Shown: positions 4,862 to 62,542, counted from the stretch's first letter. The stretch is DNA of 64,000 bases from Armatimonadota bacterium (GCA_049969495.1 JBMFOT010000002.1:4406-68405); one strand, 5' to 3'. The notes: a model not told the origin generated them from the sequence alone. Made by a program: numbers and translations.

Positions 4862-4870
4862 ACCTATCCC

Positions 4871-7422: not shown

Positions 7423-7641
7423 CGCTATTTCCCTCCCGATCTCGCAATGTATTGTTTCTTCGCTCAGTCTTCTTCTTTGGGTGGCGAATCTCCTGTTGAG
7501 CCAATGGAGCCTGCATCATGTATAGTTAGGAAAGAGACGCTATGAGGTAAAATGGAGATGATAGAAAAGTAACCTATCGCCACCTATCTGCGTCTTAATA
7601 AATGGAAACCTCTATCGCGCGCGACAGGGGAGGTGAGACCA

Positions 7642-11110: not shown

Positions 11111-11184
11111 TTTGTTATGCTGAGCGTCAGCGAAGCATCTCAGAGTGGCGGTAATACGAGATTCTTCGCTTTGCTCAGAACGAC
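11111..11184. repeat. Inverted pair of a 27-nt interspersed repeat unit (family A; GTCATTCTGAGCGnAGCGAAGAATCTC-like), forming a long imperfect hairpin
   Basis: The left arm is TGCTGAGCGTCAGCGAAGCATCTC. The right arm is GAGATTCTTCGCTTTGCTCAGAAC (reverse complement GTTCTGAGCAAAGCGAAGAATCTC), with a 16-nt loop. The same unit recurs at about 24782, 55392, 55432 and, weakly, 62501. Confidence 0.5.
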
Positions 11185-11338
11185 AGCAAAGCAGAACCAC
11201 TCCGCCCATATCCAAATAATCAAGATGGACGAACCACGGGCGTGCCGACATCGTAAAGTTTCGAGGCAACACGGGAGAATGCCTGCAGGATCGAGGCGAC
11301 GGCAAACCTGCCGATGAGTCGAAAACCGTTGCATCATC

Positions 11339-11366
11339 ACGGCTCGGCAGGAGCTTCGCTCGTTGC
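11339..11366. repeat. Family B short repeat copy (CGGCTCGGCAGGAGCtTCGC..., partial)
   Basis: It shares the core CGGCTCGGCAGGAGC with the copies at 26900 and 62422. It lies immediately upstream of the 11363(+) gene. Confidence 0.4.
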
Positions 11367-13507
11367 CGGTGAACCCCAAAAACATGAAGAAGAGACGCGC
11401 GGACAAAAAGCCTGTCGAACCTCCGCAACCCCTGCGACGGGAGTTCAGTCTCTCCACATGGCTGTTGAGCGCGGCAGTGGTACTCGCGCCGCTGACTGCC
11501 GGTCGGCTGGAGGTGGGCAGCGAGCCAGTAGAACCCTCCCTGCGCGGGGTAGTAACCGCCCTGTTTACCACCGGAGCGCTGTTGCCGCTCGCCATCTGGT
11601 GGATTACCCTGCTTGCGCTCGCTGCCGCCATCTGGGAATGGAAACAGTGTCCCGCTGGCGATGACGCGGTTCCGCGTGCTGCGCGCGTGCTGGCGACTCT
11701 GTTCGTGCTGTGGATGCTGGCATCGGTAGCGGTTTCGGTGTATCGTTGGGGTACGGTGGTCGCATGGAGCCACTGGGCGGTAGTCATCGCCACGGCGTGG
11801 CTCTTCTCGCGGAGGCGTGGAGAACAGGCGTTGACGGTTGCCCTTGCGCTGGCGTTAGCGGGCACTCTTGCTGCCGCCTTCGCCATGCGTGAGTACGCGG
11901 AGAACGCGCGCATCGTGCCGAACTGGCGCGTGTTCGGCACTTTCTTGAACCCCAATTTCCTGGCGGGCTACCTCTGCCTCACCATGCCCGTCACGTTGGG
12001 TTTGGCTCTCGCTCCCTGCCCCACGCAAACCTTGTCTTCTCCCAAAGGGGGAGGGGAACTGCGCTGGCTGTTGGGCTTCGGCGCATGGATGCAGATGGCG
12101 GCGATACTGCTCACGGGCTCGCGATTCGGTACGGCGAGCGCAGTGCTGGCTCTGATGGTACTGGCGGGATGGATGGCGTTCAACCGATCATGGAACCGCC
12201 AGCGTGCGCTGGTGTTCGGTATCGTCTGCCTGCTGGTGCTTGGCACAGCGTTCTTTACTGCCCGCTCGCTCGCCTCGCGTGTGACGACTCAGGCGGTGCA
12301 GGAAGGCGAACACTCAGGCGGATTTCGTGTGTGGACGTGGCGAGGCACGTTGCGTATGGCGCGGGCGCATCCTCTGCTGGGCACAGGGTTGGGAACCTAT
12401 GAGATAGCCTACCCGCGCTACGCCTTCGTGGGATTCACCCGAATGGCGCACAACTCCTATCTGCAGATTGCCGCCGAAGCGGGGTCGCCTGCGCTGATTC
12501 TGCTACTGGGCACGCTCGGCGTGCTGGCATGGACGGTATTGCGCACCGAGGTGCGCAATATGAATGGGATAATCGTGGGAAAATGGGATGCTCGCGTGCT
12601 CCGCGCGGGGCTGGCAGCAGCCATCGCCGCCGGGCTCGCACGCAACCTGATAGACTCCGACTGGTACATCTTTGCCTGCCTGTTCACCTTCTGGGCGATA
12701 GTGGGACTGATGCTCTCTGTCATCCCTCTCCCCTCAGGAGAGAGGCGGAAGGCAAGCGTCAACCGTCTCTATCTTGCCCACACCACCCTGCTGGCTGTTG
12801 CCTGGGTTGTGCTGACCTTGCGCATGGGGGGCGCGCTCAGCGCAAACAGCGCAAGCTGGAACCTGTCTCAGGGAATCCCCGACGAAGAGGGCTATCGGCA
12901 TGCACTGCGCTGGGAACCTTTCAACGGCGACCACTACCTCAGTTTGGGCATGCTCTCTATGAGCATGGCGCGTGCAGGTGACCTCTCGCGTGCAGAGGAC
13001 GCCCAAAAGTGGCTACGCCGCGCGGCAGAGCTGACGCCGCTCTCCAAAACGTGGTATCATCTGGGCAACCTGTATCGGGACATGCTGGGCGACCGCGACA
13101 GAGCCGTCGAAGCCTATCGCCATGCGCTGGAACTGGACCCGCACGCGCTGCGCGTCATGGCGGAGCTGGGCAAAACGCTGGAGCAACAGGGTAAACTGCA
13201 AGATGCGGAGAGGGTGTACCGGCGAATGCTGGAGATGGAATCGAGCGTATATAATCAGGTGCGTGCGGTGCCCGAGCTGCCCGAGGTGGACTACGCCTTC
13301 GCCTACGCCGGTCTGGCGCGGATCGCGAGGCAACAGGGCAAGCCGGGGAGCGAGGTGCGTGAGATGTACTCTCGCGCCCTGCGGATTCTGGACACCGACC
13401 GCGCTGCCCGAGAGAACAAGGTGATGTTATGGTCGCTGGTGCGTGCCCCGGAACGACAGCGCGCCCTGGATGAGTTACGGCAGGAGTGTGAACGCGCCCT
13501 GCGGTGA
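11363..13507 (+). CDS. Polytopic membrane protein with O-antigen ligase (Wzy_C)-like domain and C-terminal TPR repeats
   Basis: The RMAHNSYLQIAAEAGSPALILLLG motif is characteristic of Wzy_C. There are multiple TM helices and C-terminal TPR-like repeats (AVEAYRHALELDPHALRV...). The start is uncertain: TTG at 11363 per the ORF track, with an in-frame ATG 21 nt downstream. Confidence 0.6.
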   Translation: MPVNPKNMKKRRADKKPVEPPQPLRREFSLSTWLLSAAVVLAPLTAGRLEVGSEPVEPSLRGVVTALFTTGALLPLAIWWITLLALAAAIWEWKQCPAGDDAVPRAARVLATLFVLWMLASVAVSVYRWGTVVAWSHWAVVIATAWLFSRRRGEQALTVALALALAGTLAAAFAMREYAENARIVPNWRVFGTFLNPNFLAGYLCLTMPVTLGLALAPCPTQTLSSPKGGGELRWLLGFGAWMQMAAILLTGSRFGTASAVLALMVLAGWMAFNRSWNRQRALVFGIVCLLVLGTAFFTARSLASRVTTQAVQEGEHSGGFRVWTWRGTLRMARAHPLLGTGLGTYEIAYPRYAFVGFTRMAHNSYLQIAAEAGSPALILLLGTLGVLAWTVLRTEVRNMNGIIVGKWDARVLRAGLAAAIAAGLARNLIDSDWYIFACLFTFWAIVGLMLSVIPLPSGERRKASVNRLYLAHTTLLAVAWVVLTLRMGGALSANSASWNLSQGIPDEEGYRHALRWEPFNGDHYLSLGMLSMSMARAGDLSRAEDAQKWLRRAAELTPLSKTWYHLGNLYRDMLGDRDRAVEAYRHALELDPHALRVMAELGKTLEQQGKLQDAERVYRRMLEMESSVYNQVRAVPELPEVDYAFAYAGLARIARQQGKPGSEVREMYSRALRILDTDRAARENKVMLWSLVRAPERQRALDELRQECERALR

Positions 13508-16415: not shown

Positions 16416-17363
16416 CTACCTGTATTCGCCTGCTACGAGCAGCTGGGCAACGTTACGGCACGTATCGGGGTCAGGCTGACGGCAGTTGTAGATGTTGTTG
16501 TCGTAGCCGTCGAACGGGAAGGTGCGCTCGCCAGGACGGCGGAAGCAGGTCCACTTCCAGAGATTGTTGGCGATGGCGCCCTGAATGCGTGTCCACTTCA
16601 CGTGCCCATCCGCAAACACGAAATGGACGCCCTTCAGGTGATTGACCAACCAGCCATACTGGCGTACTTTGCCATCCAGGCAGGGCGAGCCTGGAGCAGG
16701 CACATCTCCGCCAAATGGGTCACCTGGTGGGTTGCACCAGCAGCGTGCCAGAGCCCACGGACCGGTGTCCGGCTCGTAGTTCTTGCCGTCCTGCATCCAG
16801 ATGGTCTCCGCGGGCACATCGAGGTCAGCCAGCTTTCTGGGAGGATCCGCGTAGCCGGATTGATAGGCAGCAAGGTTGAAAACGGCGCCGTTGACCGTGT
16901 AACCACGCGGGAACCACAGATTTTGACTGCGAGGAACGTCGCACAGCGGATCACTGCGCAGCCAAGGCGAGCTCGGATGGCAGTGTGCCCAAGTCTCATC
17001 CATTGGTGAACCACGCCACGCATTGACGTTGTCGCCCAGCATCCGGGAGATTTGCGCCTTCGCATTGGGGCACTCATAGACCGGGAGGTTCTTGACGTAC
17101 GGAAAGATGCCGTACTTCCAGTTCGACCACGTCGCCCCGCCGTTACCGATGAACCGATTGTAGGGGAATGTCTCGTCGTAGTCCTGCACATACATCATCA
17201 CTCCCGTGCCCACCTGTTTGAGGTTGCTTAGGCAGGATGCTTGTCGCGCCTTCTCGCGCGCTTGGGCGAACACAGGGAACAGGATCGCCGCCAGTATCGC
17301 GATAATCGCGATGACCACCAGCAGCTCAATGAGCGTAAAGCCGCGCTTCATGACTGTACGCAC
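16416..17363 (-). CDS. DUF1559 protein with prepilin-type N-terminal cleavage/methylation domain (pseudopilin-like)
   Basis: The N-terminus [46 protein letters not shown] is the class III signal/pilin motif. The C-terminal [10 protein letters not shown] fits the DUF1559 H-X9-DG region. Confidence 0.8.
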
Positions 17364-18970: not shown

Positions 18971-19681
18971 ATGAAATCACGTCGCGGTTTTACGCTGATT
19001 GAGCTGTTGGTTGTTATCGCGATTATCGCGATACTGGCAGCGATCCTGTTCCCGGTCTTTGCACAGGCCCGGGAGAAGGCGCGGCAAACTTCGTGCTTGT
19101 CCAACATGAAGCAGATCGGTACTGCAGCGCGGATGTACGTGGAAGATTATGATGGCATGTCCATTTGGGATACGTACTGGCAGTTCACCCATTTCCCCAA
19201 CACATGGTCTGGGTTTATTCTGCCATACGTGAAGAATGAGGACATTTTCCGTTGTCCCAGTCATGCGGTACCGCGCAAGCCGTGGAACACCGACCCCTAC
19301 GATTGGGTACCTGAGTGGTACTACAAGAGCTACGGGATCAACGTCTACGGTGCGGTGATCTACATAAAACCGGACAATACCGTTAGCGAGTTCATGCTCG
19401 ACCTCATCAAACGTCCGGCGGAGCGCATCTGGTTCTTTGAGGTGTACGATGCGGACGATAACGACCAAGGATTGGGCTACAACGCCACTTGGGGACCCAG
19501 TCACTGGGCATTTCGTCATACAGACGGAATGAACGTTACATTCATAGATACCCATGCTAAGTATGTGACACGAAAGACGCTAGAAGGGTGGTGGAACGAT
19601 CGCTCACGCAACCCATGTACCGGGCGCTACCTGTACATCTACTATCCCTGGTCATCGGACAACTCGTGTCCAGGGCTGTAG
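18971..19681 (+). CDS. DUF1559 protein with prepilin-type N-terminal methylation domain
   Basis: [61 protein letters not shown] is present. It starts 30 nt after the regulator's stop, so it is probably co-transcribed. Confidence 0.8.
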
Positions 19682-21413: not shown

Positions 21414-22424
21414 ATGCCGGCGTCTTCGCGCAGGCATTACGCAGTGGTTGGGTTGCTGCTCTGTGTGCTTGCAGTGGTCACAGCGGTTGCGGCGCTATGC
21501 CTGGGCAGTGAACTTTTGCTACCCCAGCAGGTGTGGCGCATCCTGCAGGAAGGCGGTTCCGCTAGCGATAGCGCAAGCGTGATAATATGGCAGTTGCGCC
21601 TGCCCCGCATGACGATGGCGGCGATGGTGGGCGTGTTGCTCAGCGTGGCTGGCGTGATCCTGCAGGGCTTACTGCGCAACGACCTCGCCGACCCCTACAC
21701 GATTGGCGTCTCCTCCGGTGCGGCGATGGGTGCGTCGGCAGCGGTGCTGGCGGGGTGGGAGGCAAGATGGCACGGTTTCGGTGTGCCGCTGGCCGCTTTT
21801 GTGTGCGCGATTGCCGCCACCGCGCTGGTGCTGATGGTAGCGCGGCGGGGGGGAGTGTTGCGCGTGTCGGTGTTCCTGCTGGCAGGGATTGTGGTGGGGT
21901 CGTTCATGTGGTCGGCAGTGACGTTGATGCTGACGCTGGCGGGGGCGGACGTGGGGCGTGTGTTGTTCTGGCTGATGGGCAGTTTCGCCGATGCCGAGTG
22001 GACGCGCGTGCGATTGCTCCTGCCGTTTGTGGTGCTGGGCTTTGTGGGACTACGTGCGATGGCTTACGGTTTGAACGCCTTCGCTCTGGGCGAAGAGAGC
22101 GCGGCGCATCTGGGCTTCGAGGTAGAGAAACTGAAGCGGTGGGCGATTGTGCTGGCGGCGTTGTGCACCGCGGCGGCGGTGTCGGTCAGCGGTATCATCG
22201 GGTTCGTGGGGCTGGTGGTTCCGCACATCGCGCGACGGCTATTCGGTGCCGACCATCGGCAGCTGTTCTGGAGCGCGGCGGTGCTGGGCGCGGTGCTGAT
22301 GGTATGGGCGGATACGCTGGCGCGAAGCGTTGCACGCCCTGCGGAGATACCGGTTGGCGTGATTACCGCCCTGTTGGGCGCACCGTTCTTTATCGCTCTG
22401 CTCAGGCGGGAGAGGCTGGTGTGA
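21414..22424 (+). CDS. FecCD-family iron-chelate/cobalamin ABC transporter permease
   Basis: 336 aa, about 9 TM helices. The motif LRLPRMTMAAMVGVLLSVAGVILQGLLRNDLADPYTIGVSSGAA is typical of BtuC/FecCD. Confidence 0.8.
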   Translation: MPASSRRHYAVVGLLLCVLAVVTAVAALCLGSELLLPQQVWRILQEGGSASDSASVIIWQLRLPRMTMAAMVGVLLSVAGVILQGLLRNDLADPYTIGVSSGAAMGASAAVLAGWEARWHGFGVPLAAFVCAIAATALVLMVARRGGVLRVSVFLLAGIVVGSFMWSAVTLMLTLAGADVGRVLFWLMGSFADAEWTRVRLLLPFVVLGFVGLRAMAYGLNAFALGEESAAHLGFEVEKLKRWAIVLAALCTAAAVSVSGIIGFVGLVVPHIARRLFGADHRQLFWSAAVLGAVLMVWADTLARSVARPAEIPVGVITALLGAPFFIALLRRERLV

Positions 22425-22429
22425 GGGTA

Positions 22430-22945
22430 ATGATGGCACGGAAGACGGATGGTGAACGCAAACCAACAACCGAACAGGCGATTATCGAACAAGCGCAGCG
22501 TGAACTGCGCCTGATATGGTGGCGATTCACCCTGTGGATAACCGTCCTGATGTTCGTGGCGCCGCTGGTGATGACCGTTCTGGCGGCACTGCTGAGGATG
22601 GGGCAGGTAAGCTTTTTGCTGGTAAACTTCGTTGTGGTGTTCGTGCTGGTGCAGATGATGCTATACCATGTGCGCCAATCGTACAACCGCTTAAAGCAGC
22701 TGGGGCGGACGGCGGTGCAAAAACACCTGTGGCGGGCGGCGCGCGTAGCGCTCGAGCCGTTCTCGCGCTTCGGCAATCGGGGTTTTGACTGGGATGGGGA
22801 GGCGCACTACCTGCTGATGCGCACCTATCTGTCTTCAGGTGATGTGCAGCGGGCGGCGAAAGTGCGCGATTTCCTATTGCGCTATCGACGGGGCAAATGG
22901 GTAGAGCGTGCTCGCAAGGCTATTGCTTCGGGTGAGGATGGCTAG
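22430..22945 (+). CDS. Hypothetical 2-TM membrane protein with helical C-terminal domain
   Basis: This is the in-frame continuation of ORF 21587..22945. Its MMARK start is 5 nt after the permease stop. Two hydrophobic helices are followed by a charged helical region. No ABC ATPase gene follows. Confidence 0.4.
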   Translation: MMARKTDGERKPTTEQAIIEQAQRELRLIWWRFTLWITVLMFVAPLVMTVLAALLRMGQVSFLLVNFVVVFVLVQMMLYHVRQSYNRLKQLGRTAVQKHLWRAARVALEPFSRFGNRGFDWDGEAHYLLMRTYLSSGDVQRAAKVRDFLLRYRRGKWVERARKAIASGEDG

Positions 22946-23289
22946 CCCTCTTCCTCCTCGTTCTCGTCTTCGAAGTCGAAGCCTTCGATATCTTCCATGT
23001 CCATGCTGGGGTCGGTATAGCGTCCGATCTCCTCGGCGCGGAAGACGTGCACCACGAAGTCTTCCCGCTCGAAGCGAGGCATATAGCTCGACACGATGTC
23101 CTCGTCGATCATCGCCACCAGGGTCTCTTCCTGTTCTGGGGCGAAATCGTCCTCCAGCAGCAAGGTGGCGTAGATAGTACCAGCAGCATAGTGGATGTCT
23201 ACTTGCCCTACTCGCTCGTTGTTGCGCCATATCAGATAGATTTCCGAGCTTTCGGTACGAACTAAACGGTTCAGACGCACGTTGTTCAT
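22942..23289 (-). CDS. Small acidic hypothetical protein (115 aa)
   Basis: An AGGAGAAGAGG RBS is present. It starts 11 nt after the FapA-like gene's stop on the same strand. The C-terminus is poly-acidic (DMEDIEGFDFEDENEEEEG). Confidence 0.45.
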   Translation of the reverse strand: MNNVRLNRLVRTESSEIYLIWRNNERVGQVDIHYAAGTIYATLLLEDDFAPEQEETLVAMIDEDIVSSYMPRFEREDFVVHVFRAEEIGRYTDPSMDMEDIEGFDFEDENEEEEG

Positions 23290-23299
23290 GCCTCTTCTC

Positions 23300-24670
23300 C
23301 TAGAGCTTGTCCAGTGGTCTCATCTGCACTCGCGCCTCACCACGCGCGACGAAAAAGCGAACGGCTTGCAAATCGCTTTCTACCAGATAGCTGTATTTGC
23401 CGATAGTCACCTTCACGCCCGGGTAAATCGCGCCCCGCACCACTACTTCCGCCCGGGTGGGTGCATTGACCTGTATGGTGATGGCGCGCTTCTCGTGTTG
23501 CAGTTCCTTCAGCCTCGCCTCCAGACGTCGGCGATGTGTCATCAGTCGCTGGATAGCCTCTTTCTTTTCGGACGAGGCGACCTCTGCGGTGACCGACACG
23601 TACGGGCGCAGGGCGGCGTTGATTTTTTGTATATTATCCTCACATTGGCGCATCTCCTCTGCAATCTCAAAGAGCCGTTCATCGCCCAGAGTGTCCACTC
23701 CCACTACCACCTCGGTAGGCGTCCACGCAGGTGTACCTATAGTATACGCCTCTATGCCCTCAAATGCCACTATGCGCCCACCTGCAATCTGCACGTTTGC
23801 GTTCAGCGCAATCACTCGATGGCGGGTGCAGAGGGTGCAATCCATGACACTGGCGCCTAGCAGGATGTTCCCATCGGCGGCTATATCCGAACGTTGTGCC
23901 CCGCCGCGCAGGTAGCAGGTACCCCTGGCATGGAGAGAGCTCCCTTCGCATCGCCCCCCGACTGCCACATCGCCATGCACGCGCACCTGCGCACCCGGCA
24001 GGAGATTGCCTTTGAGCACCAGCGTCTCGGTAAACTCTTGCGCTCCCCGCAGGTCGCCCGCTATCGGCTGCGCCGGTAGTAAGATCAGCTTGTCGCCGGA
24101 GAGGTGCACATAGCCCGACTTCTGCGCGGTGAACTGCAGGTTATCGTCGGAGGCAAGCACGTTCTCCCCCGCACGCAGGTTAGCGTCTCTGCCGGGGCGT
24201 TGAGGCACATTTTGTGGCGGAAAGGTTAACGTGCGCCCCGGGCGACCATGCTGTGCCGGTACGACGGTGGCAATCAGTTGTCCCGCCTGAATGTAACGCG
24301 CCGGGTCTAACTGGAGATAGTCGATGCTTCCATCGAGCAGCAGGGGTAATGGACGTAACACCGCCTCCTCCGGTAAACGGTAAATCACTTTTGCGTCGGT
24401 TCCGTGAACGGGTGGCACGCCCTGCGCAACGACCGCCTGCACCTTGCTCGCAAGGTTTGTGGCGCGCTCTATCGTATCGCGGATGGCGTGTTCGTCGATG
24501 CCGTAAGCAACCCCCATCTCTTCCAGTGCACGCACGACCTCCGCCACCCGCACAGGGTTGCCGTCGCCCTGAGGCGGCGCAACCAGCAGTATCGCTTGAG
24601 TCTTATCTTCGTTAAAGAACACCCAGAAGCTGCCGTCTACAGAAGCCCGCAACGAAGGCTTCAGTGCCAT
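23300..24670 (-). CDS. FapA-like (DUF342) protein
   Basis: About 457 aa from the internal Met, which has a GGAGGT RBS. There is an N-terminal domain, repeated beta-helix-like G-rich segments and a coiled-coil. The C-terminal ...IYPGVKVTIGKY is typical of the FapA/DUF342 family. Confidence 0.5.
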   Translation of the reverse strand: MALKPSLRASVDGSFWVFFNEDKTQAILLVAPPQGDGNPVRVAEVVRALEEMGVAYGIDEHAIRDTIERATNLASKVQAVVAQGVPPVHGTDAKVIYRLPEEAVLRPLPLLLDGSIDYLQLDPARYIQAGQLIATVVPAQHGRPGRTLTFPPQNVPQRPGRDANLRAGENVLASDDNLQFTAQKSGYVHLSGDKLILLPAQPIAGDLRGAQEFTETLVLKGNLLPGAQVRVHGDVAVGGRCEGSSLHARGTCYLRGGAQRSDIAADGNILLGASVMDCTLCTRHRVIALNANVQIAGGRIVAFEGIEAYTIGTPAWTPTEVVVGVDTLGDERLFEIAEEMRQCEDNIQKINAALRPYVSVTAEVASSEKKEAIQRLMTHRRRLEARLKELQHEKRAITIQVNAPTRAEVVVRGAIYPGVKVTIGKYSYLVESDLQAVRFFVARGEARVQMRPLDKL

Positions 24671-24781
24671 GAGTGACCTCCGCAATCTGTTCCAAAATGG
24701 ATTATCAATGCAGCACCAGAGCAGTTGATCTGCAAAACCGATGCACATGTCAAACGCTGCCTCTTTGATTATCGGAAGAGG

Positions 24782-24826
24782 TTGCCTCGTTTCTGAGACA
24801 GAAGGATTCTTCGCGCCCGAGAGGCA
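24782..24826. repeat. Hairpin element related to family A (TTGCCTCG...GATTCTTCGCG...CGAGAGGCAA)
   Basis: An 8-bp imperfect stem encloses TTTCTGAGACAGAAGGATTCTTCGCGCC. It shares the TTCTGAG ... GAAGAAT core of family A. Confidence 0.35.
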
Positions 24827-24876
24827 ATTAAACGATTAAGAAACGAGATTTCGTCGCAGATTGCAGAGGCTAGCCG

Positions 24877-26898
24877 ATGCTTTCCTGGCGTAAGTGGACG
24901 GTGCCTTATTCTCCCAGCGTAGCGGGGGCGCGTGTGCAGGAACCTGCAGCCACAGCGATAGCCGCCCCAGGGCGCACCCTCACGCTAAGAGCGTGGATGA
25001 TTGGTATCCTCTGTGTGACACTGGTGGACCTGTGGATACACTGGGCGGAGCTGGTGCTGGGCGGACGCGGGCACACCGCGCTGGCGAACACCTCTATCCC
25101 TGTTGGGGCGTTCAACGCGCTGGTCGCGCTGGTGGTGATGAACTTGCTGTTACGGCGAGTAGCAGCGCGATGGGCGCTAACCCCTCAGGAACTGCTGGTC
25201 ATCTATGTCATGATGACCGTCGCCACGGTGCTGTCCTCCTCGGGCGCGTTGCACTTCATCGTACCGACGGTGACCGCCGCCTTCTATTACGCCTCTGCCG
25301 AAAACCAGTGGGCTCAGCTCTTTCATCGCTACATCCCCGATTGGCTGGCGCAGAAGAATGAGTTCGCGCTGAAATACTTTTACCAGGGCGACGCGCCTGT
25401 GCCGCTGGGCTTGTGGTGGAAGCAAATCGGTGCGTGGACGCTGTTCATGACCGTGTACACCTTCACCTGCCTGTGCTTGATGGCGATTATGCGCAGGCAA
25501 TGGGTGGAGCGTGAGCGGCTGACCTTCCCGACGGTTGCACTGCCTCTTGCACTCATCCGCGAACCGCAATCGCTGTTCAGTAGCCGATTATTGTGGCTGG
25601 GTTTTGCCATCCCCTTTAGCCTGGGCACGATGAACACCATCCACCTGAACTATCCGGCGGTTCCTGAAATACCTCTACGCGCCACCAGCCACCTGGACCT
25701 CGCACAATGGGTGACCACGCCGCCGTGGAACGCCATCGGCTACACCCCGATGTCCTTCTACCCCTTCGTCATCGGCATCGCCTATCTGCTGTCGCTGGAC
25801 GTGACGTTCAGTTGCTGGTTCTTCTATCTGGTGACCAAGATCGAGCTGGTGCTGGGTTCGGCGATGGGCTGGACGGCAGCAGCGGGAGGCGCAGCGCAAA
25901 GCGTCTATCCCTGGACAGGTCATCAGGGCGCGGGAGCCTTTCTGGGGTTGGCGGCTATCAGCCTTTATCTGGCGCGCAAGCACTTGAAAGAGGTGTGGCA
26001 AACCGCCTGGCGCGGTCAAGGTGACGATAGCGACGAACCGATGCCGTATCGCTGGGCAGTGGTTGGTTTCTTCCTGGGGTTACTGGGCAGTATGATGTTT
26101 TGTGTGGTAGCGGGCATGAGCTGGGGCGCGGCGGCGATACTGGTGCTGCTCGCCCTTTCCTACATGATGGCGGCGACGCGCACCCGTGCTGAAAGCGGTA
26201 ACGCCTGGCTGTTCGGTCCCAGTGTAGACGTATACCAGCTCATGACCACCACCTTCGGCACAACGGGCTTTCGCGTGCAGGACCTGACCATCCTGGCTTA
26301 CATGCGTGCTCCGCTGGCGAATTTCGACCTGCGTTGTATCTCCATGCCTCACCAGCTGGACGGCTTCAAGATGGGCGGTGAGGTGCGTGCTAACCTGCGT
26401 CAGGTGGCGATGGCGATGATGACGGCGATCGCGGTGGGGTTCATCGTCTCGTTCGTGATTGCGCTGGCGATATGGTACCACTTCGGCGCGGGCGCAAAGA
26501 CCGACGCCTGGCGCACCTACATGGGACGAACCCCCTTCGACGCGCTGGCGGACGCTATCAAAACGCCCTTGAAAGCGGATACCAACGGCTCCATCGCGGT
26601 AGTATTCGGTTTGTTGATTACACTGGTGCTTGCGATACTGCGTACACAGCTTGCCTGGTTCCCCTTCCATCCTGTTGGCTATGCAATCGCCCACACGCTG
26701 ACCATGCAGATGGTGTGGTTGCCCTTCATTATCGCGTGGGTCATCAAGTGGGTGGTGCTGCACTTCGGCGGGATGAAGCTCTACCGCCAGTCCTTGCCGT
26801 TCTTCTTCGGGCTGATACTGGGCGACTTCCTGAACGGCGGCTTCTGGACGCTGGTCGGGTGCTTTACCAATATCAGCGTCTACCCGATTAACTGGTAG
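24877..26898 (+). CDS. Large polytopic membrane protein (about 14 TM), unknown family
   Basis: 673 aa. Hydrophobic helices run throughout and aromatic residues are abundant. There are no recognisable catalytic motifs. The start is uncertain. Confidence 0.5.
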   Translation: MLSWRKWTVPYSPSVAGARVQEPAATAIAAPGRTLTLRAWMIGILCVTLVDLWIHWAELVLGGRGHTALANTSIPVGAFNALVALVVMNLLLRRVAARWALTPQELLVIYVMMTVATVLSSSGALHFIVPTVTAAFYYASAENQWAQLFHRYIPDWLAQKNEFALKYFYQGDAPVPLGLWWKQIGAWTLFMTVYTFTCLCLMAIMRRQWVERERLTFPTVALPLALIREPQSLFSSRLLWLGFAIPFSLGTMNTIHLNYPAVPEIPLRATSHLDLAQWVTTPPWNAIGYTPMSFYPFVIGIAYLLSLDVTFSCWFFYLVTKIELVLGSAMGWTAAAGGAAQSVYPWTGHQGAGAFLGLAAISLYLARKHLKEVWQTAWRGQGDDSDEPMPYRWAVVGFFLGLLGSMMFCVVAGMSWGAAAILVLLALSYMMAATRTRAESGNAWLFGPSVDVYQLMTTTFGTTGFRVQDLTILAYMRAPLANFDLRCISMPHQLDGFKMGGEVRANLRQVAMAMMTAIAVGFIVSFVIALAIWYHFGAGAKTDAWRTYMGRTPFDALADAIKTPLKADTNGSIAVVFGLLITLVLAILRTQLAWFPFHPVGYAIAHTLTMQMVWLPFIIAWVIKWVVLHFGGMKLYRQSLPFFFGLILGDFLNGGFWTLVGCFTNISVYPINW

Positions 26899-26899
26899 G

Positions 26900-26926
26900 G
26901 GCTCGGCAGGAGCCTCGCCCTCCAGA
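26900..26926. repeat. Family B short repeat copy GGCTCGGCAGGAGCCTCGCCCTCCAGA
   Basis: It matches the copy at 62422-62449 in 27 of 27 positions. It contains the hairpin GGCTC-ggcag-GAGCC. It sits immediately after the stop of 24877..26898 and upstream of the 27034 gene. Confidence 0.6.
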
Positions 26927-27033
26927 CGACTTTGGGCGGCTTGCTCGCACTTTACAAAATCTTTATCCGCTGAGTATAATTTGTGGGGTGTTCAACCCGA
27001 TAATGCGAAATCATGCGCCTGGGAGGTGATGGA

Positions 27034-28137
27034 ATGCAAGGGATTATTATCGCCGGCGGATTCGGCACCCGTTTCCGCCCACTCACTTACACCCGTCCGA
27101 AACCTCTCATGCCCATCTTGAATCGCCCACTGCTGGAATATCAGGTCGCTCTGCTGAAGGCGCACGGTGTGACGGAGATTGTGTTTGCCACCAACTATAT
27201 GGCTGATGCGATTGAAGAGCACTTTGGGGACGGCAGCCGATTCGGCGTGAAGATGCGTTATGCGCAGGAGCACCAGCCTCTCGGCACAGCGGGAGCCATT
27301 CGCAACGCCGCGAAGAGCCTCTGGAGGCGAGAGACGGTGGTGGTTTTCAACGGCGATATTGTGACCGATTTTGACCTGAGCGCGGTGATAGACCTGCACC
27401 GACGACGAGGTGCGCGTGCCACCATCGCGCTGAAGGCAGTGCCCAGCCCCAACCCATACGGCGTGCTGGAGCTGGATAACGACGGCAGGGTTCTGGCGTG
27501 GCTGGAGCCAACAGAAGAGCAGAAAAAGGCACTGGCGGCGAATCCCAATGTGGAACAGACCGGCTGGGATTACATCAACGCGGGTTTCTACGTGCTGGAG
27601 CCGGAGGTGATAGAGAGTATCCCCGATGGCAGAGCGGTGTCCATAGAGCGCGAAATCTACCCGCGCATGATTGCACAGGGCGAAGGTTTATACGGCGCGC
27701 CTGCTGAAGGCTACTGGGTGGACGTCGCCGGTCCCACGCATTACTGGAAAGTGACCAACGACCTGCTGCGGGGGCGCGTGAACGTTCCCTTGCCCGGCAC
27801 ACCTCGCTCGGAGGGCCTGTGGTGCATGGAGCGTGCGCAGGTACATTGCACCCTTGACGTGGGCGCAGTAGCGCACATCGGTGAAGGGGCAGTCGTAGAG
27901 AAAGAGGTGCACCTGCGCGGGACGGTTGTGGTTGGCGCAGGCTGCCATATCGAGCGGGGATGCGTGCTGGAAGATTGTGTGCTGCTGGAAGGGGTACACG
28001 TTGGCGAGGGAACCAGCCTGACCCGCGTCCTCTGCGACCGCGATGTATCTATTGCCGCGGGTAGTCGTATCACCGATGCGGTGATAGCGGCAAGCAGTCA
28101 TATCGAGCGCGAAAGCCGATTGGGGGCAAGTTGGTAA
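27034..28137 (+). CDS. NDP-sugar pyrophosphorylase (mannose-1-phosphate guanylyltransferase-like) with C-terminal left-handed beta-helix
   Basis: GIIIAGGFGTRFRPLTYTRPKPL (nucleotidyltransferase G-x-G-T-R motif). Hexapeptide-repeat-like segments are at the C-terminus. A GGGAGGTG RBS precedes the internal Met. Confidence 0.75.
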   Translation: MQGIIIAGGFGTRFRPLTYTRPKPLMPILNRPLLEYQVALLKAHGVTEIVFATNYMADAIEEHFGDGSRFGVKMRYAQEHQPLGTAGAIRNAAKSLWRRETVVVFNGDIVTDFDLSAVIDLHRRRGARATIALKAVPSPNPYGVLELDNDGRVLAWLEPTEEQKKALAANPNVEQTGWDYINAGFYVLEPEVIESIPDGRAVSIEREIYPRMIAQGEGLYGAPAEGYWVDVAGPTHYWKVTNDLLRGRVNVPLPGTPRSEGLWCMERAQVHCTLDVGAVAHIGEGAVVEKEVHLRGTVVVGAGCHIERGCVLEDCVLLEGVHVGEGTSLTRVLCDRDVSIAAGSRITDAVIAASSHIERESRLGASW

Positions 28138-28150
28138 AGAGGACATCATC

Positions 28151-29278
28151 ATGGACAAAACCTTTCAGGTACCTATAGCTGACCTTCAGGCGCAGTACCG
28201 CGCCCTGCGTCCGGAGATAGATGCTGCCGTTGCTCGTGTGCTGGAGAGCGGACGGTTTATTCTGGGGGAGAACGTGCAGCGTCTCGAGGAGGAGGTAGCC
28301 GCCTGCTGTGGGGCGCGTTTTGGGATCGGTGTGGCTTCCGGCACCGATGCGCTGGAGCTGTCACTGGCAGCACTGGGTATCGGACCGGGGGACGAGGTCA
28401 TTACCACCCCCTTCACTTTCGGAGCCACCACCGAGGTCATCGTTCGGCTGGGTGCAAAACCGGTCTATGTAGATATTGACCCCGATACCTATAATATCGA
28501 TGTGAACGCGATTGAACGCGCCATCACGCCGCGCACGCGCGCCCTCCTACCGGTAGACCTGTTCGGGCAGATGGCAGACCGGCAGGCGCTATGGCGCATC
28601 GCACAGGAGCACGGTCTTTACCTGGTAAACGACTCGGCGCAGGCTATCGGGGCGCAGCAGAACGGCGTTCCGGTCGCGGCGGTGGGTCATGCGACTGCGC
28701 TGAGTTTCTACCCCACGAAAAACCTGGGAGCATTCGGCGATGGCGGCATCGTATTGACCAGTGATGAGCAGATAGCCCGGCGAGTGAGGCAACTGCGCGT
28801 GCACGGCGCGGAAGGCGGGGCGTATTTTTACAAGATGCCGGGCTATTGCAGTCGTCTGGACGAGGTGCAGGCGGCGATACTACGGGTGAAACTGCGCTAT
28901 CTGGAGGAGTGGAACGAGCGTCGCCGCCAAAATGCCCGCCGATACATGGAACTGCTGAAGGGCACCCAAACAGTTCTCCCTGTGACCGCGCCGGGCAACC
29001 TGCACACCTATCATCAGTTTACCGTCCGGCATCGTCAGCGCGATGCGCTGCAGGCATACCTGAAGGAACATGGCATCGCGACTGCCGTGTATTATCCGCT
29101 GCCGCTACACCTGCAAGAGGCGTACCGGTGCCTGGGCTACAAACGCGGTGACTTCCCCCATGCGGAACGCGCTGCCGAGCAGGTACTTTCCCTGCCGGTG
29201 CATCCGGAGCTGAGCATGGAGCAAATCGAGTATGTCGCCGCGATGGTGCGGCGATTCGAGGAGGAACAGACGCCATGA
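28151..29278 (+). CDS. DegT/DnrJ/EryC1/StrS-family PLP-dependent sugar aminotransferase
   Basis: Classic N-terminal IADLQAQYRALRPEIDAAVARVLESGRFILGENVQRLEEE ... GTDALEL, with the PLP lysine region downstream. Confidence 0.85.
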   Translation: MDKTFQVPIADLQAQYRALRPEIDAAVARVLESGRFILGENVQRLEEEVAACCGARFGIGVASGTDALELSLAALGIGPGDEVITTPFTFGATTEVIVRLGAKPVYVDIDPDTYNIDVNAIERAITPRTRALLPVDLFGQMADRQALWRIAQEHGLYLVNDSAQAIGAQQNGVPVAAVGHATALSFYPTKNLGAFGDGGIVLTSDEQIARRVRQLRVHGAEGGAYFYKMPGYCSRLDEVQAAILRVKLRYLEEWNERRRQNARRYMELLKGTQTVLPVTAPGNLHTYHQFTVRHRQRDALQAYLKEHGIATAVYYPLPLHLQEAYRCLGYKRGDFPHAERAAEQVLSLPVHPELSMEQIEYVAAMVRRFEEEQTP

Positions 29279-30330
29279 AGGCGATGATTCTGGCGGCCGG
29301 GGTAGGGTCACGTCTGGACCCGCTCACCCGAAACGTGCCTAAGCCGATGGTTCCCATTGTGAACCGCCCGGTGATGGAGCACATTGTGGAACTGCTGAAG
29401 CGACACGGCTTCAACGAGATTATGGTGAATCTGTACTACCTAGGCGACCAAATAGAAAGCCACTTCGGAGATGGCTCCAAATGGGGCGTGCGCATCCACT
29501 ATTCGAAGGAAGACCGCCTGTGGGGAGACGCCGGTAGCGTCAAACGGTGCGAGCACTTCTTCGATGACACCTTCATCGTCATCGGTGGCGACGACATCAC
29601 CGATTTAGACCTCACCCGCCTGCTTCGCTACCACAGGGAGAAACGCGCTATCGCCACCATCGCCCTGTCGCTGGTCGACGACCCCTCGGAGTACGGTATC
29701 GCCCTGCTGAACGAGCGGGGACGCATCACCCGCTTCCTTGAGAAACCGCGCGGAGAGGTTATCTTCTCCAACGCGGCGAACACCGGCGTGTACGTGTTCG
29801 AGCCGGAGATATTTGACCTCATCCCCCGCGGCGTAACCTACGGATTCGGCGCGAACCTGTTGCCCTTGCTGCTTGAACAGCGTCGCCCCTTCTTTGGCTT
29901 TCTCACTTCCTCGTACTGGAAGGACGTCGGCAACCTGCGCACCTATCAGCAGACGCACGTGGATGCCATGCAGGGTAGGGTTTCTCTGCGAATACCCTAC
30001 CCCGAAACGCGCAAGTATGTGTGGATTGGTAACAACGTGAAGATCGACCCCACCGCCGAAATCGGCTATCCGGTGGTGATTGGCAACAACTGCGAAATCG
30101 GTCCGGGCGCGAAGGTGCTGGAGTACAGCGTGCTGGGCGATAACTGCGTGGTAGAAGATAACGCCACGGTGCAGGAAAGCATCCTGTGGGAGGGGGCAGT
30201 AGTGATGCGCGATACGATGCTGGTACGCTGTGTGGTGGGCAGAGGCTGTCGCGTGAAGTCCAACGCGGCGGTGTTCGATGGAGTGATTGTAGACCCCGTG
30301 AGAAAGAATAACCACGTGGGCACTGGATAG
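29275..30330 (+). CDS. NDP-sugar pyrophosphorylase (second copy) with C-terminal LbH domain
   Basis: MKAMILAAGVGSRLDPLTRNVPKPMVPIVNRPVMEHIVELL. It overlaps the aminotransferase stop by ATGA. Confidence 0.75.
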   Translation: MKAMILAAGVGSRLDPLTRNVPKPMVPIVNRPVMEHIVELLKRHGFNEIMVNLYYLGDQIESHFGDGSKWGVRIHYSKEDRLWGDAGSVKRCEHFFDDTFIVIGGDDITDLDLTRLLRYHREKRAIATIALSLVDDPSEYGIALLNERGRITRFLEKPRGEVIFSNAANTGVYVFEPEIFDLIPRGVTYGFGANLLPLLLEQRRPFFGFLTSSYWKDVGNLRTYQQTHVDAMQGRVSLRIPYPETRKYVWIGNNVKIDPTAEIGYPVVIGNNCEIGPGAKVLEYSVLGDNCVVEDNATVQESILWEGAVVMRDTMLVRCVVGRGCRVKSNAAVFDGVIVDPVRKNNHVGTG

Positions 30331-44752: not shown

Positions 44753-45502
44753 TCAATCGCGGGTGAAGTGAGCGTCGGTCATCTGCGTCTGGCTCATCGG
44801 CTTCACGTGCCCGTCGCAGAAGACGATGTTCGCGAACCCGCGATGTTTTACCACTTGGTTACCGGTGTCCACGTCCTTACGGTTATCGATGTGACGGAAA
44901 TCCACCGTGGGGTTACCCCACCACATGGAGGGCGGGTCAATGTAGGGTGTTTCCCACATGGTGCCGTCGCCACCGTACCAGGGCACATTGTAGAAACCAC
45001 TGTCGGCGAACATCACCTTTTCCGCAGGACGTGAGAGCGCGGATTCGGAGGCAGGGTTGCGCAGGTTGGGCCAAGTGCTCCAGTTGAAGGTGATGTAGAT
45101 GTCCGAGCCGATATAACCCCAGTTGTAACCGTAGCCGTTACCGTCGCCAAAGCGGGTGCGTCCACCCCAGCTGGGACAGCGTTGAATCTGCCCGTTTTTC
45201 ATGTAGGGGTAGAGCAAGCTCTGCGTTTTGTCCCACACGCCTGCCTGCGTTTCCTTGCCGAACCAGCACTGTCGCAGAGAACCACTGTAGGCGTACTGGG
45301 CAATGGGGTAGGTCTCGTCGTAGTCCTGGAGGTACATCAGCGTTGCCAGACCCAGCTGCTTCAGGTTGCTCTGGCAGCTCGCCTGACGGGCTTTCTCGCG
45401 TGCCTGCGCGAAAACAGGGAACAGAATCGCTGCCAGTATCGCGATAATCGCGATAACTACCAGCAGCTCAATCAGCGTGAAAGCGTTGCGTTGGCGGAAC
45501 AT
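44753..45502 (-). CDS. DUF1559 protein with prepilin-type N-terminal methylation domain
   Basis: The start is at the internal Met ([49 protein letters not shown]), which has an AAGGAGGG RBS. Confidence 0.8.
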
Positions 45503-45939
45503 ACTTCCCTCCTTACCAAAAAATTCACCGCTCACGACGCGCGGAGGGAAACGTCGGAAGCGGTGTGTGCTTTCGGCGCGTCAATAAAAAACCTGATGCC
45601 CTTCCGCACCAGGTTGGTTGAAACGCGCCCGATTCACCTTCGGGTCACGTCCCCCTCCCTCCGCGAAGGGGGCCCTGCGATGTGCAGGGCGTGACCAGCC
45701 GTCGCCGGGCATTCGGGCTTATCTCCCCGTGTGGGAGACACACCGCAGCGGGCCTGCGCCGGATTCTCACCGGACTTCCCCCGATATTTCAGCCCCGATG
45801 CGATCGGGGCGCAGACGGCTCACCCTTATGTGATTTGGTAATACTATATCACAGCCGCGCGGGGCTGTCAAGCGTTTTCGCAGCGACTTTGGAGATTTTT
45901 TGTACCCGGCGAGGAAAACTGCTTGCACCGAGGCGAAAC

Positions 45940-55359: not shown

Positions 55360-55391
55360 TAAATTGATTGGGTTGATTGCGTGCGTGTTGA

Positions 55392-62288: not shown

Positions 62289-62345
62289 CGTTGAAAGGTC
62301 ATGCTCCGTCGCCATTACCACTTTAGTGTACCCCACTCTGGCATC

Positions 62346-62449
62346 TGACGCTCTAACTATTAGAGCGTCAATGATGAATCTTGGCTTCGCCCCTCTGGAG
62401 GGCGAACATCACATACCATAACGGCTCGGCAGGAGCCTCGCCCTCCAGA
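62346..62449. promoter_or_regulatory. Cluster of palindromes and a repeat in the divergent trmFO / DUF1559 intergenic region
   Basis: A perfect 11-bp inverted repeat TGACGCTCTAA-cta-TTAGAGCGTCA (about 62346-62370). A hairpin TTCGCCC-ctctgga-GGGCGAA (about 62386-62406). The family B repeat CGGCTCGGCAGGAGCCTCGCCCTCCAGA (62422-62449). TTGACA is at about 62459. Confidence 0.5.
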
Positions 62450-62542
62450 AGAATGAGCCTTGACAGACCACTGTGGCTATTGTAACCATCATCCCTGCTG
62501 TGTCATCATAAAGGATGGATCTTTTATTCTCAGGAGCGAGCC

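What the first reader, a model, noticed from the sequence alone, without database searches (positions are those of the whole stretch)
26900..26926. Repeat family B: 27-28-nt element CGGCTCGGCAGGAGCCTCGCCCTCCAGA found three times, always just upstream of plus-strand genes
The copies at 26900-26926 and 62422-62449 are identical over 27 nt. The copy at 11339-11366 is partial (CGGCTCGGCAGGAGCtTCGC). Each contains the small hairpin GGCTC-ggcag-GAGCC. Each lies 20-110 nt upstream of a start codon (27034 NDP-sugar pyrophosphorylase, 62543 DUF1559, 11363 Wzy-like). Exact conservation in non-coding DNA implies selection or recent spread. This fits a transcription-factor site, a riboregulatory hairpin in 5' UTRs or a small mobile repeat.
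Basis: seen in the sequence. Interest (0 to 1): 0.5.

Follow-up and report, generated by a model that had tools for sequence, protein, structure and literature searches.

The report
Widespread REP-like palindromic repeat unit
The 27-nt element is a copy of a short interspersed palindromic repeat, similar to the REP/REPIN elements of E. coli and Pseudomonas, that comes and goes between close relatives and occurs almost unchanged in several bacterial phyla, so it is not a regulator of the genes beside it.

Summary
GGCTCGGCAGGAGCCTCGCCCTCCAGA is exact at 26900-26926 and 62423-62449, and a decayed 19-nt copy lies at 11341-11359.

The element is not specific to this locus. Its core, GGCTCGGCAGGAGCCTCGCCCTCC(C/A), which I call U1, occurs in many Planctomycetota, and also in Verrucomicrobiota, Kiritimatiellae, Victivallales and Armatimonadota. 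The window comes from Armatimonadota.

In 896 kb around such sites I found 256 units. Seventy-seven neighbouring inverted pairs all have one polarity (GGGAGGGCGAGGCTCCTGCCGAGCC, a 7-36 nt spacer, then U1) and none has the opposite. The units are mostly intergenic, under-represented between divergent genes, not tied to any gene family, and have no target-site duplication.

Relatives about 92% identical in DNA lack copy 2, and carry different repeat units at the copy 1 site. Copy 1 starts 1 nt after a stop codon and lies upstream of the next gene's -35/-10 promoter.

Best reading: a non-autonomous REP/REPIN-like mobile repeat with a new conserved tag. Mobilisation by an HUH/Y1 (RAYT-like) enzyme is inferred only, because no such gene was found in about 1.5 Mb of flanking sequence. 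I found no published description. The cross-phylum conservation of the arms remains unexplained.

The parts
26900..26926 (+). U1 unit, copy 1: small hairpin GGCTC-GGCAG-GAGCC followed by the conserved tail TCGCCCTCCAGA. It has no inverted U1 partner.
   Evidence: Exact 27-mer. It starts 1 nt after the stop codon of gene 24877-26898. In L137/L138, which are 91-93% identical and collinear over 8 kb, the only break is window 26902-26943 against 134 nt holding different repeat units.
26891..26899 (+). CTGGtAGGG, a possible 5' 'foot' that pairs with CCCTCCAG of copy 1. It overlaps the last codons and the TAG stop of the upstream gene.
   Evidence: Read directly from the sequence. The DNA fold of 26886-26930 gives -9.3 kcal/mol, z -2.05. 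This feature is weak and may be fortuitous.
26951..26980 (+). Sigma-70-like promoter (TTTACA-18-TATAAT) for the NDP-sugar operon. It lies downstream of copy 1.
   Evidence: Matches 11 of 12 consensus positions. The sequence is conserved in L137/L138 just beyond the variable repeat segment.
62423..62449 (+). U1 unit, copy 2.
   Evidence: Exact 27-mer.
62394..62406 (-). Foot-only inverted partner (TCTGGAGGGCGAA) of copy 2. Its own hairpin part has been lost, which makes this a 'double-foot' structure.
   Evidence: Matches the tail pattern with 1 mismatch on the minus strand. The fold has a 12-bp outer stem plus the inner U1 hairpin: RNA -37.8 kcal/mol, z -4.4; DNA -17.8 kcal/mol, z -6.1.
62344..62469 (.). 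Lineage-specific insertion that carries copy 2, its foot partner, and a further partial tail (GGCTTCGCCCC, about 62381-62393).
   Evidence: This 126-nt stretch is replaced by 10 nt in L199 (92% nt identity) and is absent from L200/L201. The flanks align on both sides (alignment A1).
62297..62319 (-). Decayed copy of a second unit type, U2 (GGTCGCGACGGAGCGCGACC + CTCCAG), 15 nt upstream of the TrmFO start codon.
   Evidence: Aligns with a nearly intact U2 in L199 (10054-10073, 1 mismatch). It is absent from L200/L201.
11341..11359 (+). Decayed or truncated U1 unit, copy 3 (GGCTCGGCAGGAGCTTCGC), lacking the CCCTCC tail.
   Evidence: Matches 19 of 19 positions of the degenerate family core. It lies in the divergent spacer between the GH127 gene (8609-11068, minus strand) and the Wzy_C/TPR gene (11384-13507, plus strand).

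Best explanation
The element is one arm of a short interspersed palindromic repeat of the REP/REPIN kind.

Anatomy. The unit, U1, is 25-26 nt: a 5-bp/5-nt hairpin (GGCTC GGCAG GAGCC) followed by a conserved 10-nt tail, TCGCCCTCC(C/A). The usual complete form is an inverted doublet with the tails outward and a 7-36 nt spacer of no fixed sequence. This doublet can fold into a hairpin of about 25 bp in single-stranded DNA or RNA.

Likely origin (inferred, not shown). I think the units are non-autonomous. I expect them to be copied or excised as single-stranded hairpins by a trans-acting HUH/Y1 tyrosine transposase of the RAYT type. That enzyme would recognise hairpin plus tail, as E. coli TnpA-REP recognises hairpin plus GTAG.

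The three window copies are remnants:
- Copy 2 is a 'double-foot' unit inside a 126-nt insertion specific to this genome.
- Copy 1 is a solo unit in a repeat hot spot between a stop codon and the next promoter.
- Copy 3 is decayed.

Local effect. Any effect is incidental, most plausibly a stem-loop at the 3' end of the upstream transcript. The copies do not regulate the downstream genes.

Shown: the family, its architecture, its intergenic interspersion, the lack of target duplication, and gain/loss between close relatives. Inferred: the enzyme and the single-strand mechanism.
For: Family and breadth. Most were Planctomycetota. Verrucomicrobiota, Kiritimatiellae, Victivallales and Armatimonadota were also present. 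Unit boundaries are sharp and the flanks are unrelated.

Abundance. There are 256 units with at most 6 mismatches in 896 kb, against 1 in shuffled sequence.

Polarity. 77 neighbouring inverted pairs are '-+' and 0 are '+-'.

Variation. The variable positions are hairpin-loop positions 6 and 9, and position 15, where C->T keeps a G-T pair.

Location. At most 34% of sites overlap crude ORF calls although 84% of the sequence is coding. Intergenic sites split 51 tandem, 20 convergent and 8 divergent. In tandem spacers 36 sites lie nearer the upstream stop and 23 nearer the downstream start. Solo units show no orientation bias, 8 same against 14 opposite.

Insertion signature. The 68 doublets have no target-site duplication. 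The flanking bases are Y|GGGAGGG...CCCTCCC|R.

Gain and loss. Copy 2 sits in a 126-nt segment missing from three relatives. At the copy 1 site L137/L138 carry different units. A third repeat indel lies at window 55378-55420 against L199.

Shared tail. A second unit type, U2, has a different hairpin but the same CTCCAG tail and forms mixed doublets with U1. This parallels the GTAG REP superfamily, in which one tag goes with many hairpins (PMC3733652).

Related elements nearby. Canonical GTAG REPs are fused to U2-like units in relative L199.
Against: No Y1/RAYT gene. I found none in the window or in 201 loci, about 1.5 Mb in total. I searched with tblastn using a RayT consensus and with an HMM built from 120 RayT proteins against six-frame translations. 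With one RAYT per genome and hundreds of units, only about 0-2 hits would be expected, so this result is uninformative rather than contrary.

No known tag. The unit lacks the GTAG/CGTC tags of described REP superfamilies. It also lacks the CnGA foot reported for class 3 Y1 genes of Planctomycetes.

Spacers. Doublet spacers are poorly conserved even within one genome, unlike Pseudomonas REPINs. Simple replication of whole doublets therefore does not explain the pattern.

Conservation. Near-invariance of the arms across phyla is not typical of REPs and suggests a constraint I have not identified.
Confidence: 0.7

Rival explanations
1. Cis-regulatory element of the downstream genes: a transcription-factor operator, or a riboregulatory hairpin in the 5' UTR of envelope, polysaccharide or pilin genes.
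For: All three window copies lie 24-107 nt upstream of plus-strand start codons. The downstream genes are an NDP-sugar transferase, a DUF1559 pilin-like protein and a Wzy_C protein.
Against: - Three relatives with the same TrmFO/DUF1559 arrangement lack the element.
- Copy 1 lies upstream of the predicted -35/-10 promoter.
- Three other DUF1559 genes in the window have no copy.
- Across 153 sites elsewhere, divergent (promoter-rich) spacers are under-represented and no neighbouring gene family recurs.
- Solo units show no orientation bias relative to transcription.
- Rfam gives no match.
Confidence: 0.05
2. A functional RNA stem-loop at the 3' ends of genes, acting as a transcription terminator or an mRNA-stabilising hairpin. 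Sequence conservation would be a by-product of spread. This could coexist with the mobile-repeat reading as an exapted role.
For: - Copy 1 begins 1 nt after a stop codon.
- Across loci, sites favour tandem and convergent spacers and lie somewhat nearer to stops, 36 against 23.
- Full doublets fold very stably: L103, -41.6 kcal/mol as DNA, z -11.3.
- REPs in other bacteria have been proposed to act this way (PMC3733652 abstract).
Against: - No T/U tract follows the hairpins, and no terminator-like sites were called at either window copy.
- A structural role does not need a sequence that is invariant across phyla.
- Copies 2 and 3 lie in divergent spacers where no gene ends.
- The solo 27-mer folds no better than shuffles.
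Confidence: 0.15
3. A miniature inverted-repeat transposable element (MITE) derived from a DDE-type insertion sequence, with the 25-nt arms as terminal inverted repeats.
For: The doublets have fixed-polarity 25-bp inverted arms flanking a short interior. Presence and absence differ between relatives.
Against: - No target-site duplication of 2-6 nt above chance in 68 doublets.
- Doublets are only 57-86 nt long and their interiors are unrelated.
- About half of the units are solo.
- No transposase gene lies between or beside units in the held loci.
Confidence: 0.07
4. A binding or uptake signal for a conserved host protein, for example a DNA-uptake sequence read by a type IV pilin-like protein, or a nucleoid or repair protein site. 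Selection, rather than transposition, would then keep it constant.
For: - The arms are nearly invariant across phyla while spacers drift.
- From my own knowledge, not tested here, the taxonomic range resembles that of lineages rich in DUF1559 pilin-like genes.
- Also from general knowledge, Neisseria uptake sequences often occur as inverted pairs behind genes.
Against: - The density, roughly 1 per 20-30 kb here, is far below that of known uptake sequences.
- The units are largely excluded from coding DNA.
- Insertion/deletion behaviour and mosaic arrays with GTAG REPs look like mobile DNA.
- No candidate protein was identified.
Confidence: 0.06

Closest known systems
REP / BIME elements of E. 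coli and other Proteobacteria (GTAG-tagged REP superfamily; Di Nocera et al. 2013, PMC3733652)
   Same: - The unit is short (20-40 nt) and made of a stem-loop plus a conserved unpaired tag at one end.
- It is mostly extragenic and favours spacers between tandem and convergent genes.
- Inverted dimers and mosaic clusters are frequent.
- One tag can go with different hairpins (U1 and U2 share the CTCCAG tail).
- 'Double-foot' forms exist, like window copy 2 (PMC6006769 describes these).
   Different: - The tag is GGGAGGGCGA / TCGCCCTCCC, not GTAG or CGTC.
- The stem is only 5 bp.
- The same 25-mer is kept across several phyla, whereas most REP families are specific to a species or genus.
- No associated RAYT has been found.
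REPIN-RAYT systems of Pseudomonas (Bertels & Rainey 2011, PMC3116915)
   Same: - Two inverted units separated by a short spacer form a long hairpin.
- The polarity is fixed.
- The elements are interspersed through intergenic DNA.
- Presence and absence differ between related genomes.
- There is no target duplication.
   Different: - The spacers are not conserved within a genome.
- About half of the units are solo.
- The defining single-copy RAYT gene flanked by the units has not been shown.
Hairpin repeats flanking class 3 TnpA-Y1 genes in Planctomycetes and Acidobacteria (Quentin et al. 2018, PMC6006769)
   Same: - Both are atypical, weakly structured hairpins without GTAG.
- Both can be high in copy number.
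- Both occur in Planctomycetes.
   Different: - The reported 5' foot is CnGA, whereas U1 has GCGA/CGAG at that place.
- Linkage to a class 3 gene was not tested.

Membership tests
REP (GTAG/CGTC-tagged repetitive extragenic palindromes) | Short unit (20-40 nt) containing a stem-loop | tested here: met
   The unit is 25-26 nt with a 5-bp stem and 5-nt loop. Variation is concentrated in loop positions 6 and 9 and in a G-C to G-T change at position 15. The stem alone is not more stable than shuffles.
REP (GTAG/CGTC-tagged repetitive extragenic palindromes) | Unpaired GTAG or CGTC tetranucleotide at one end | tested here: not met
   The conserved end is TCGCCCTCC(C/A), or GGGAGGGCGA on the other strand. 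Neither GTAG nor CGTC is present in or beside the unit.
REP (GTAG/CGTC-tagged repetitive extragenic palindromes) | Many interspersed extragenic copies, mainly between tandem and convergent genes | tested here: met
   There are 153 sites in 896 kb. At most 34% overlap crude ORF calls, against 84% coding sequence. Intergenic sites split 51 tandem, 20 convergent and 8 divergent. Whole-genome counts were not available.
REPIN-RAYT system | Two inverted units with a short spacer, able to form a hairpin | tested here: met
   77 '-+' pairs and 0 '+-' pairs, with spacers mostly 7-36 nt. The L103 doublet folds at -41.6 kcal/mol, z -11.3.
REPIN-RAYT system | The doublet replicates as one unit, so the spacer is conserved among copies in a genome | tested here: inconclusive
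   Spacers from the same genome are more alike than those from different genomes (median score 0.125 against -0.27). Only 1 of 19 same-genome pairs exceeds 0.6.
REPIN-RAYT system | A cognate RAYT (HUH/Y1, PF01797) gene flanked by the units | tested here: inconclusive
   No Y1 gene was found in the window or in 201 loci. The consensus query was valid.
REPIN-RAYT system | Gain and loss between related genomes | tested here: met
   Copy 2 is in a filled site against empty sites in L199-L201. The copy 1 site shows turnover against L137/L138.
MITE derived from a DDE-type insertion sequence | Target-site duplication flanking the terminal inverted repeats | tested here: not met
   Matches of 3-6 nt direct repeats flanking 68 doublets were at chance level for all offsets tested.
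Intrinsic (Rho-independent) terminator | G+C-rich hairpin followed by a T/U run | tested here: not met
   No terminator-like sites were called around either full copy. The sequence shows no T run after the units.
Any curated RNA family (Rfam 15) | Score at or above the family's gathering threshold | tested here: not met
   The only window hit is a cobalamin riboswitch elsewhere. E-value scans of both copies and of a full doublet gave only sub-threshold generic hairpin (miRNA model) matches.
Class 3 TnpA-Y1-associated hairpins (Planctomycetes/Acidobacteria) | 5' tetranucleotide foot CnGA and location flanking a class 3 Y1 gene | tested here: inconclusive
   The foot next to the U1 hairpin reads GCGA (or CGAG with a 4-bp stem), not CnGA. 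Linkage to class 3 genes could not be tested, and the published sequences are not in the held supplements.

The most novel reading that the evidence does not exclude
U1 and U2 may define a third 'tag superfamily' of REP-like elements, tagged CCCTCC rather than GTAG or CGTC. Its 25-nt arm would be held almost invariant across Planctomycetota, Verrucomicrobiota, Kiritimatiellota/Lentisphaerota and Armatimonadota by an as yet unidentified trans-acting partner. That partner could be a new HUH/Y1 subclass that moves between phyla, or a host protein. Either would explain why the arms are conserved while the spacer between them is not.
Probability: 0.2. Interest if true: 0.65.

Novelty: new member of a known kind. 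Interest (0 to 1): 0.4.

Why it matters
For this window the result is corrective. The repeat should not be annotated as an operator or leader of the polysaccharide or pilin genes. It marks hot spots of intergenic insertion and deletion.

More broadly, the same 25-mer recurs across several phyla with small lineage-specific changes in the tail. REP-like elements are usually lineage-specific, so this is unusual. It gives a concrete handle for finding the enzyme or host factor that recognises the unit.

The family also generates spurious small ORFs and breaks assemblies in genomes of the Planctomycetes-Verrucomicrobia-Chlamydiae (PVC) group and of Armatimonadota. A defined consensus is therefore useful for annotation and masking.

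Tried and rejected
- Rfam. I ran one scan at gathering thresholds and three local E-value scans. They returned only a cobalamin riboswitch elsewhere in the window and sub-threshold miRNA-hairpin noise.
- Literature. Searches for the exact 15-mers and for the peptides the unit would encode found nothing. The two REP/RAYT surveys that cover Planctomycetes describe other sequences.
- Linked transposase.
  - tblastn with a RayT consensus and a recalled E. coli YafM sequence found nothing.
  - An HMM of 120 RayT proteins against six-frame translations of all loci found nothing.
  - Clustering ORFs across 120 loci and running Pfam on the recurrent clusters gave only abundant housekeeping families: TPR, ABC, MoxR, FGE-sulfatase, SDR, DUF1559 and DUF1501.
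- Plasmid and phage collections gave no real match. IMG/VR held only 16 contigs with the unit. One of them (L128) has two doublets 2.7 kb apart, but the ORFs between them have no Pfam hit.
- Target-site duplication test: negative.
- Compensatory covariation within the small hairpin: essentially none, because the unit is too invariant. Arm-to-arm covariation could not be tested fairly, since one arm of each doublet was fixed by the search pattern.
- Exact-protein look-ups of three proteins found nothing: the window's DUF6785 and DUF1559 proteins, and P0121, the database protein identical to the window's TrmFO.
- A Pfam scan of translated doublets failed on stop codons and I dropped it.
- The attempt to find more orthologous filled/empty pairs among the genome loci was too noisy to use. 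It only hinted that L064 and L082 differ in repeat content.

Full report
**Observation.** The 27-mer GGCTCGGCAGGAGCCTCGCCCTCCAGA is identical at window 26900-26926 and 62423-62449. None is expected by chance. The 14-nt core recurs exactly at 11341-11354 and the similarity runs to 11359 (GGCTCGGCAGGAGCTTCGC) before it is lost. All three copies contain GGCTC-GGCAG-GAGCC. This 5-bp hairpin alone is no more stable than shuffled sequence (z -0.19).

**Local context.**
- Copy 1 starts 1 nt after the TAG stop of a DUF6785/DUF6784 gene (24877-26898). It lies 107 nt before the ATG of an NTP_transferase gene. A strong sigma-70-like site (TTTACA-18-TATAAT, 26951-26980) lies between the element and that ATG.
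- Copy 2 lies in the divergent spacer between TrmFO (60963-62282, minus strand) and a DUF1559/N_methyl pilin-like gene (62543-63136). It has an inverted 13-nt partner, TCTGGAGGGCGAA, at 62394-62406. Together they form a 12-bp outer stem around the small hairpin (RNA -37.8 kcal/mol, z -4.4; DNA z -6.1).
- Copy 3 lies in the divergent spacer between a GH127 gene and a Wzy_C/TPR gene, 24 nt before ATG 11384.

**The element is a family that reaches far beyond this genome.**
- Most are Planctomycetota of all classes. Several are Verrucomicrobiota, and others are Kiritimatiellae, Victivallales and Armatimonadota. A few contigs are labelled Ignavibacteria, Binatia, Zixibacteria, Thermodesulfobacteriota or Alphaproteobacteria. 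I did not verify those labels, and two singletons (L090, L102) match only the 19-mer and may be chance.
- Aligned instances show a sharply bounded unit, GGCTCGGCAGGAGCCTCGCCCTCCC (U1), with unrelated flanks.
- In the 120 loci plus the window (896 kb) there are 256 units with at most 6 mismatches, against 1 in shuffled sequence. 114 are perfect.
- Variation is concentrated at loop positions 6 and 9, and at position 15, where C->T keeps a G-T pair.
- Tail variants are lineage-specific: CCCTCCC in Planctomycetota, CCCTACC in Verrucomicrobiota, CCCTCCAG in hot-spring Armatimonadota including the window, and CCCTCCAAG in a Kiritimatiellae MAG.

**Architecture.**
- Neighbouring units within 200 nt form 77 inverted pairs. 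All have the polarity GGGAGGGCGAGGCTCCTGCCGAGCC - spacer - GGCTCGGCAGGAGCCTCGCCCTCCC, and none has the opposite polarity. Spacers are mostly 7-36 nt. There are also 26 direct pairs.
- The doublets fold into very stable hairpins (L103: -41.6 kcal/mol as DNA, z -11.3).
- About half of the units with the exact core have no recognisable partner.
- Partner arms differ from the consensus by 2.6 of 25 positions on average. Spacers are essentially unrelated, even within one genome, apart from sub-families such as a 32-nt spacer shared by related glacier-stream MAGs.
- The 68 doublets show no flanking direct repeat of 3-6 nt above chance. The bases just outside are a pyrimidine on the left and a purine on the right.

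**Genomic placement.** My gene calls are crude: ORFs with excess GC3, validated by eye on the window.
- At most 52 of 153 sites overlap a called ORF, although 84% of the sequence is called coding. Many of those overlaps are at ORF ends or with short, doubtful ORFs.
- Intergenic sites split 51 tandem, 20 convergent and 8 divergent. By intergenic length the background is 55%, 24% and 21%.
- In tandem spacers the site is nearer the upstream stop in 36 cases and nearer the downstream start in 23. Solo units have no orientation bias relative to transcription, 8 same against 14 opposite.
- No gene family recurs next to the element other than families abundant in these phyla.
- In the window, four DUF1559 pilin-like genes are present and only one has a copy upstream.

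**Source and relatives.** A TrmFO protein identical to the window's is on record from an NCBI MAG, on a 91-kb contig. The nearest named relatives are 'bacterium HR16' and an Armatimonadota MAG. A metagenome scan with the DUF6785 protein gave 62 loci.

**Gain and loss between close relatives.**
- L137/L138 are collinear with window 21870-29803 at 91-93% nucleotide identity. The only break is at the repeat. Window 26902-26943 (42 nt, copy 1) faces 134 nt in L137. That stretch holds a minus-strand U1 variant, a second unit type U2 (GGTCGCGACGGAGCGCGACC), and another partial U1. The stop codon on the left and the promoter on the right are conserved.
- For copy 2, three relatives (L199 at 92% nt identity; L200 and L201 at about 82-85%) keep the TrmFO/DUF1559 pair. 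They lack the element. Window 62344-62469 (126 nt) is replaced by 10 nt in L199 and is absent from L200/L201. The conserved region upstream of the DUF1559 gene begins immediately after the insert.
- The insert is a small mosaic: a partial plus-strand tail, a foot-only minus-strand unit, and the full U1.
- The same spacer holds a decayed U2 at 62297-62319. It is nearly intact in L199 and absent from L200/L201.
- A third repeat-bearing indel separates window 55378-55420 from L199 17893-18151. There L199 has two tandem composites of a U2-like unit fused to a canonical GTAG REP, GTAGCCGCAGGCTTTAGCCTGC.
- These repeats account for at least three of the five large differences between otherwise collinear genomes: both U1 sites and this indel. 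The other two (window 57838-57875 and 60012-60039 against L199) showed no repeat units.

**Second unit type.** In hot-spring MAGs (L043, L101, L137), U2 has a different hairpin (GGTCGCG-ACGGAG-CGCGACC) but the same 3' tail, CTCCAG. It forms mixed U1/U2 as well as U2/U2 doublets, always tails outward. One tag with several hairpins is the pattern described for the GTAG REP superfamily (PMC3733652). 'Double-foot' units such as window copy 2 have been explained as central deletions of inverted dimers (PMC6006769).

**Interpretation.** The anatomy and behaviour are those of REP/REPIN-type repeats:
- short hairpin-plus-tag units;
- fixed-polarity inverted doublets;
- mosaic clusters;
- intergenic interspersion, with a preference for the ends of genes;
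- no target duplication;
- rapid gain and loss.

The most likely mechanism is mobilisation in trans, as single-stranded hairpins, by an HUH/Y1 transposase. This step is inferred. I found no Y1 gene in the window or in any of 201 loci. My RayT consensus did retrieve thousands of PF01797 proteins from the protein database. From what I recall of its motifs, that consensus resembles subclass 2.1, which is reported not to be associated with REPs. The element has neither the GTAG/CGTC tags nor the CnGA foot of described families.

**Rivals.**
- A cis-regulatory role for the downstream genes is contradicted by several results. Relatives lack the element. Copy 1 lies upstream of the promoter. No gene family is associated with it, orientation is unbiased, and Rfam has no match.
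- A terminator or stabiliser role is possible as a side effect for copies behind genes. However, there is no U tract, and such a role would not explain the sequence invariance.
- A DDE-type MITE is disfavoured by the absence of target duplications and of any parent IS.
- A host-protein or DNA-uptake site cannot be excluded and is the main alternative explanation for the invariance of the arms. The density is low, though, and the indel behaviour looks like mobile DNA.

**Novelty.** Neither the sequence nor its translated peptides appear in the searchable literature. The two surveys that include Planctomycetes list other repeats. I therefore file it as a new member of a known kind. One feature is genuinely unexplained: the 25-nt arm is conserved across phyla while the spacer is free.

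Noticed in passing
window 11113-11141 (+), 11158-11185 (-), 55451-55475 (+): A different short repeat family, TGTYRTKCTGAGCGnnAGCGAAGnATCTC. It is present as an inverted doublet in the same spacer as U1 copy 3, and as a solo copy at 55.4 kb. The family also occurs in relatives L139, L101, L043 and L199.
   Followed up: partly
window 62297-62319: A decayed U2 unit lies 15 nt upstream of the TrmFO start codon. The segment containing it is absent from L200/L201, where TrmFO appears to start at a different codon (GTG). The insertion may therefore have changed the N-terminus.
   Followed up: partly
L199 17893-18151 (against window 55378-55420): Two tandem ~83-nt composites, each a U2-like unit fused to a canonical GTAG-tagged REP (GTAGCCGCAGGCTTTAGCCTGC). 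They are absent from the window. No such GTAG REP occurs anywhere in the 64-kb window.
   Followed up: partly
window 4868-4908 and 4941-4981: Two 41-nt copies (78% identical, 73 nt apart) of a G/C-run palindrome, CCCCCCAACCCCCTTCCCC-N-GGGGAAGGGGGAGCATTGC. This is probably another repeat family (family D14).
   Followed up: no
window 45687-45831 (-): Cobalamin riboswitch aptamer (RF00174), 42.8 bits against a gathering score of 31.5.
   Followed up: no
window 17163-17339, 45305-45481, 18983-19120 (inverted): About 140-177 nt of DNA conserved at around 80% among the 5' ends of three DUF1559/N_methyl pilin-like genes. It also matches other Armatimonadota contigs (L067, L042, L140). This is unusually high nucleotide conservation for paralogues.
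   Followed up: partly
window 8111-8470: A coding repeat with 9-nt periodicity, rich in Gly with aromatic residues (GGCGGCTAY/TGG...), inside ORF 7633-8472.
   Followed up: no
L128 5049-5123 and 7759-7833 (IMG/VR contig): Two U1 doublets 2.7 kb apart lie inside larger ~110-nt inverted repeats. They bracket ORFs with no Pfam hit, next to a HlyIII gene. This could be a composite element or simply host DNA.
   Followed up: partly
L064 6280-6354 against L082 3758-4456: The flanks are about 85% identical, but L064 has one doublet where L082 has three U1 sites spread over 700 nt. This is probably another orthologous spacer whose repeat content differs between Planctomycetaceae MAGs.
   Followed up: no
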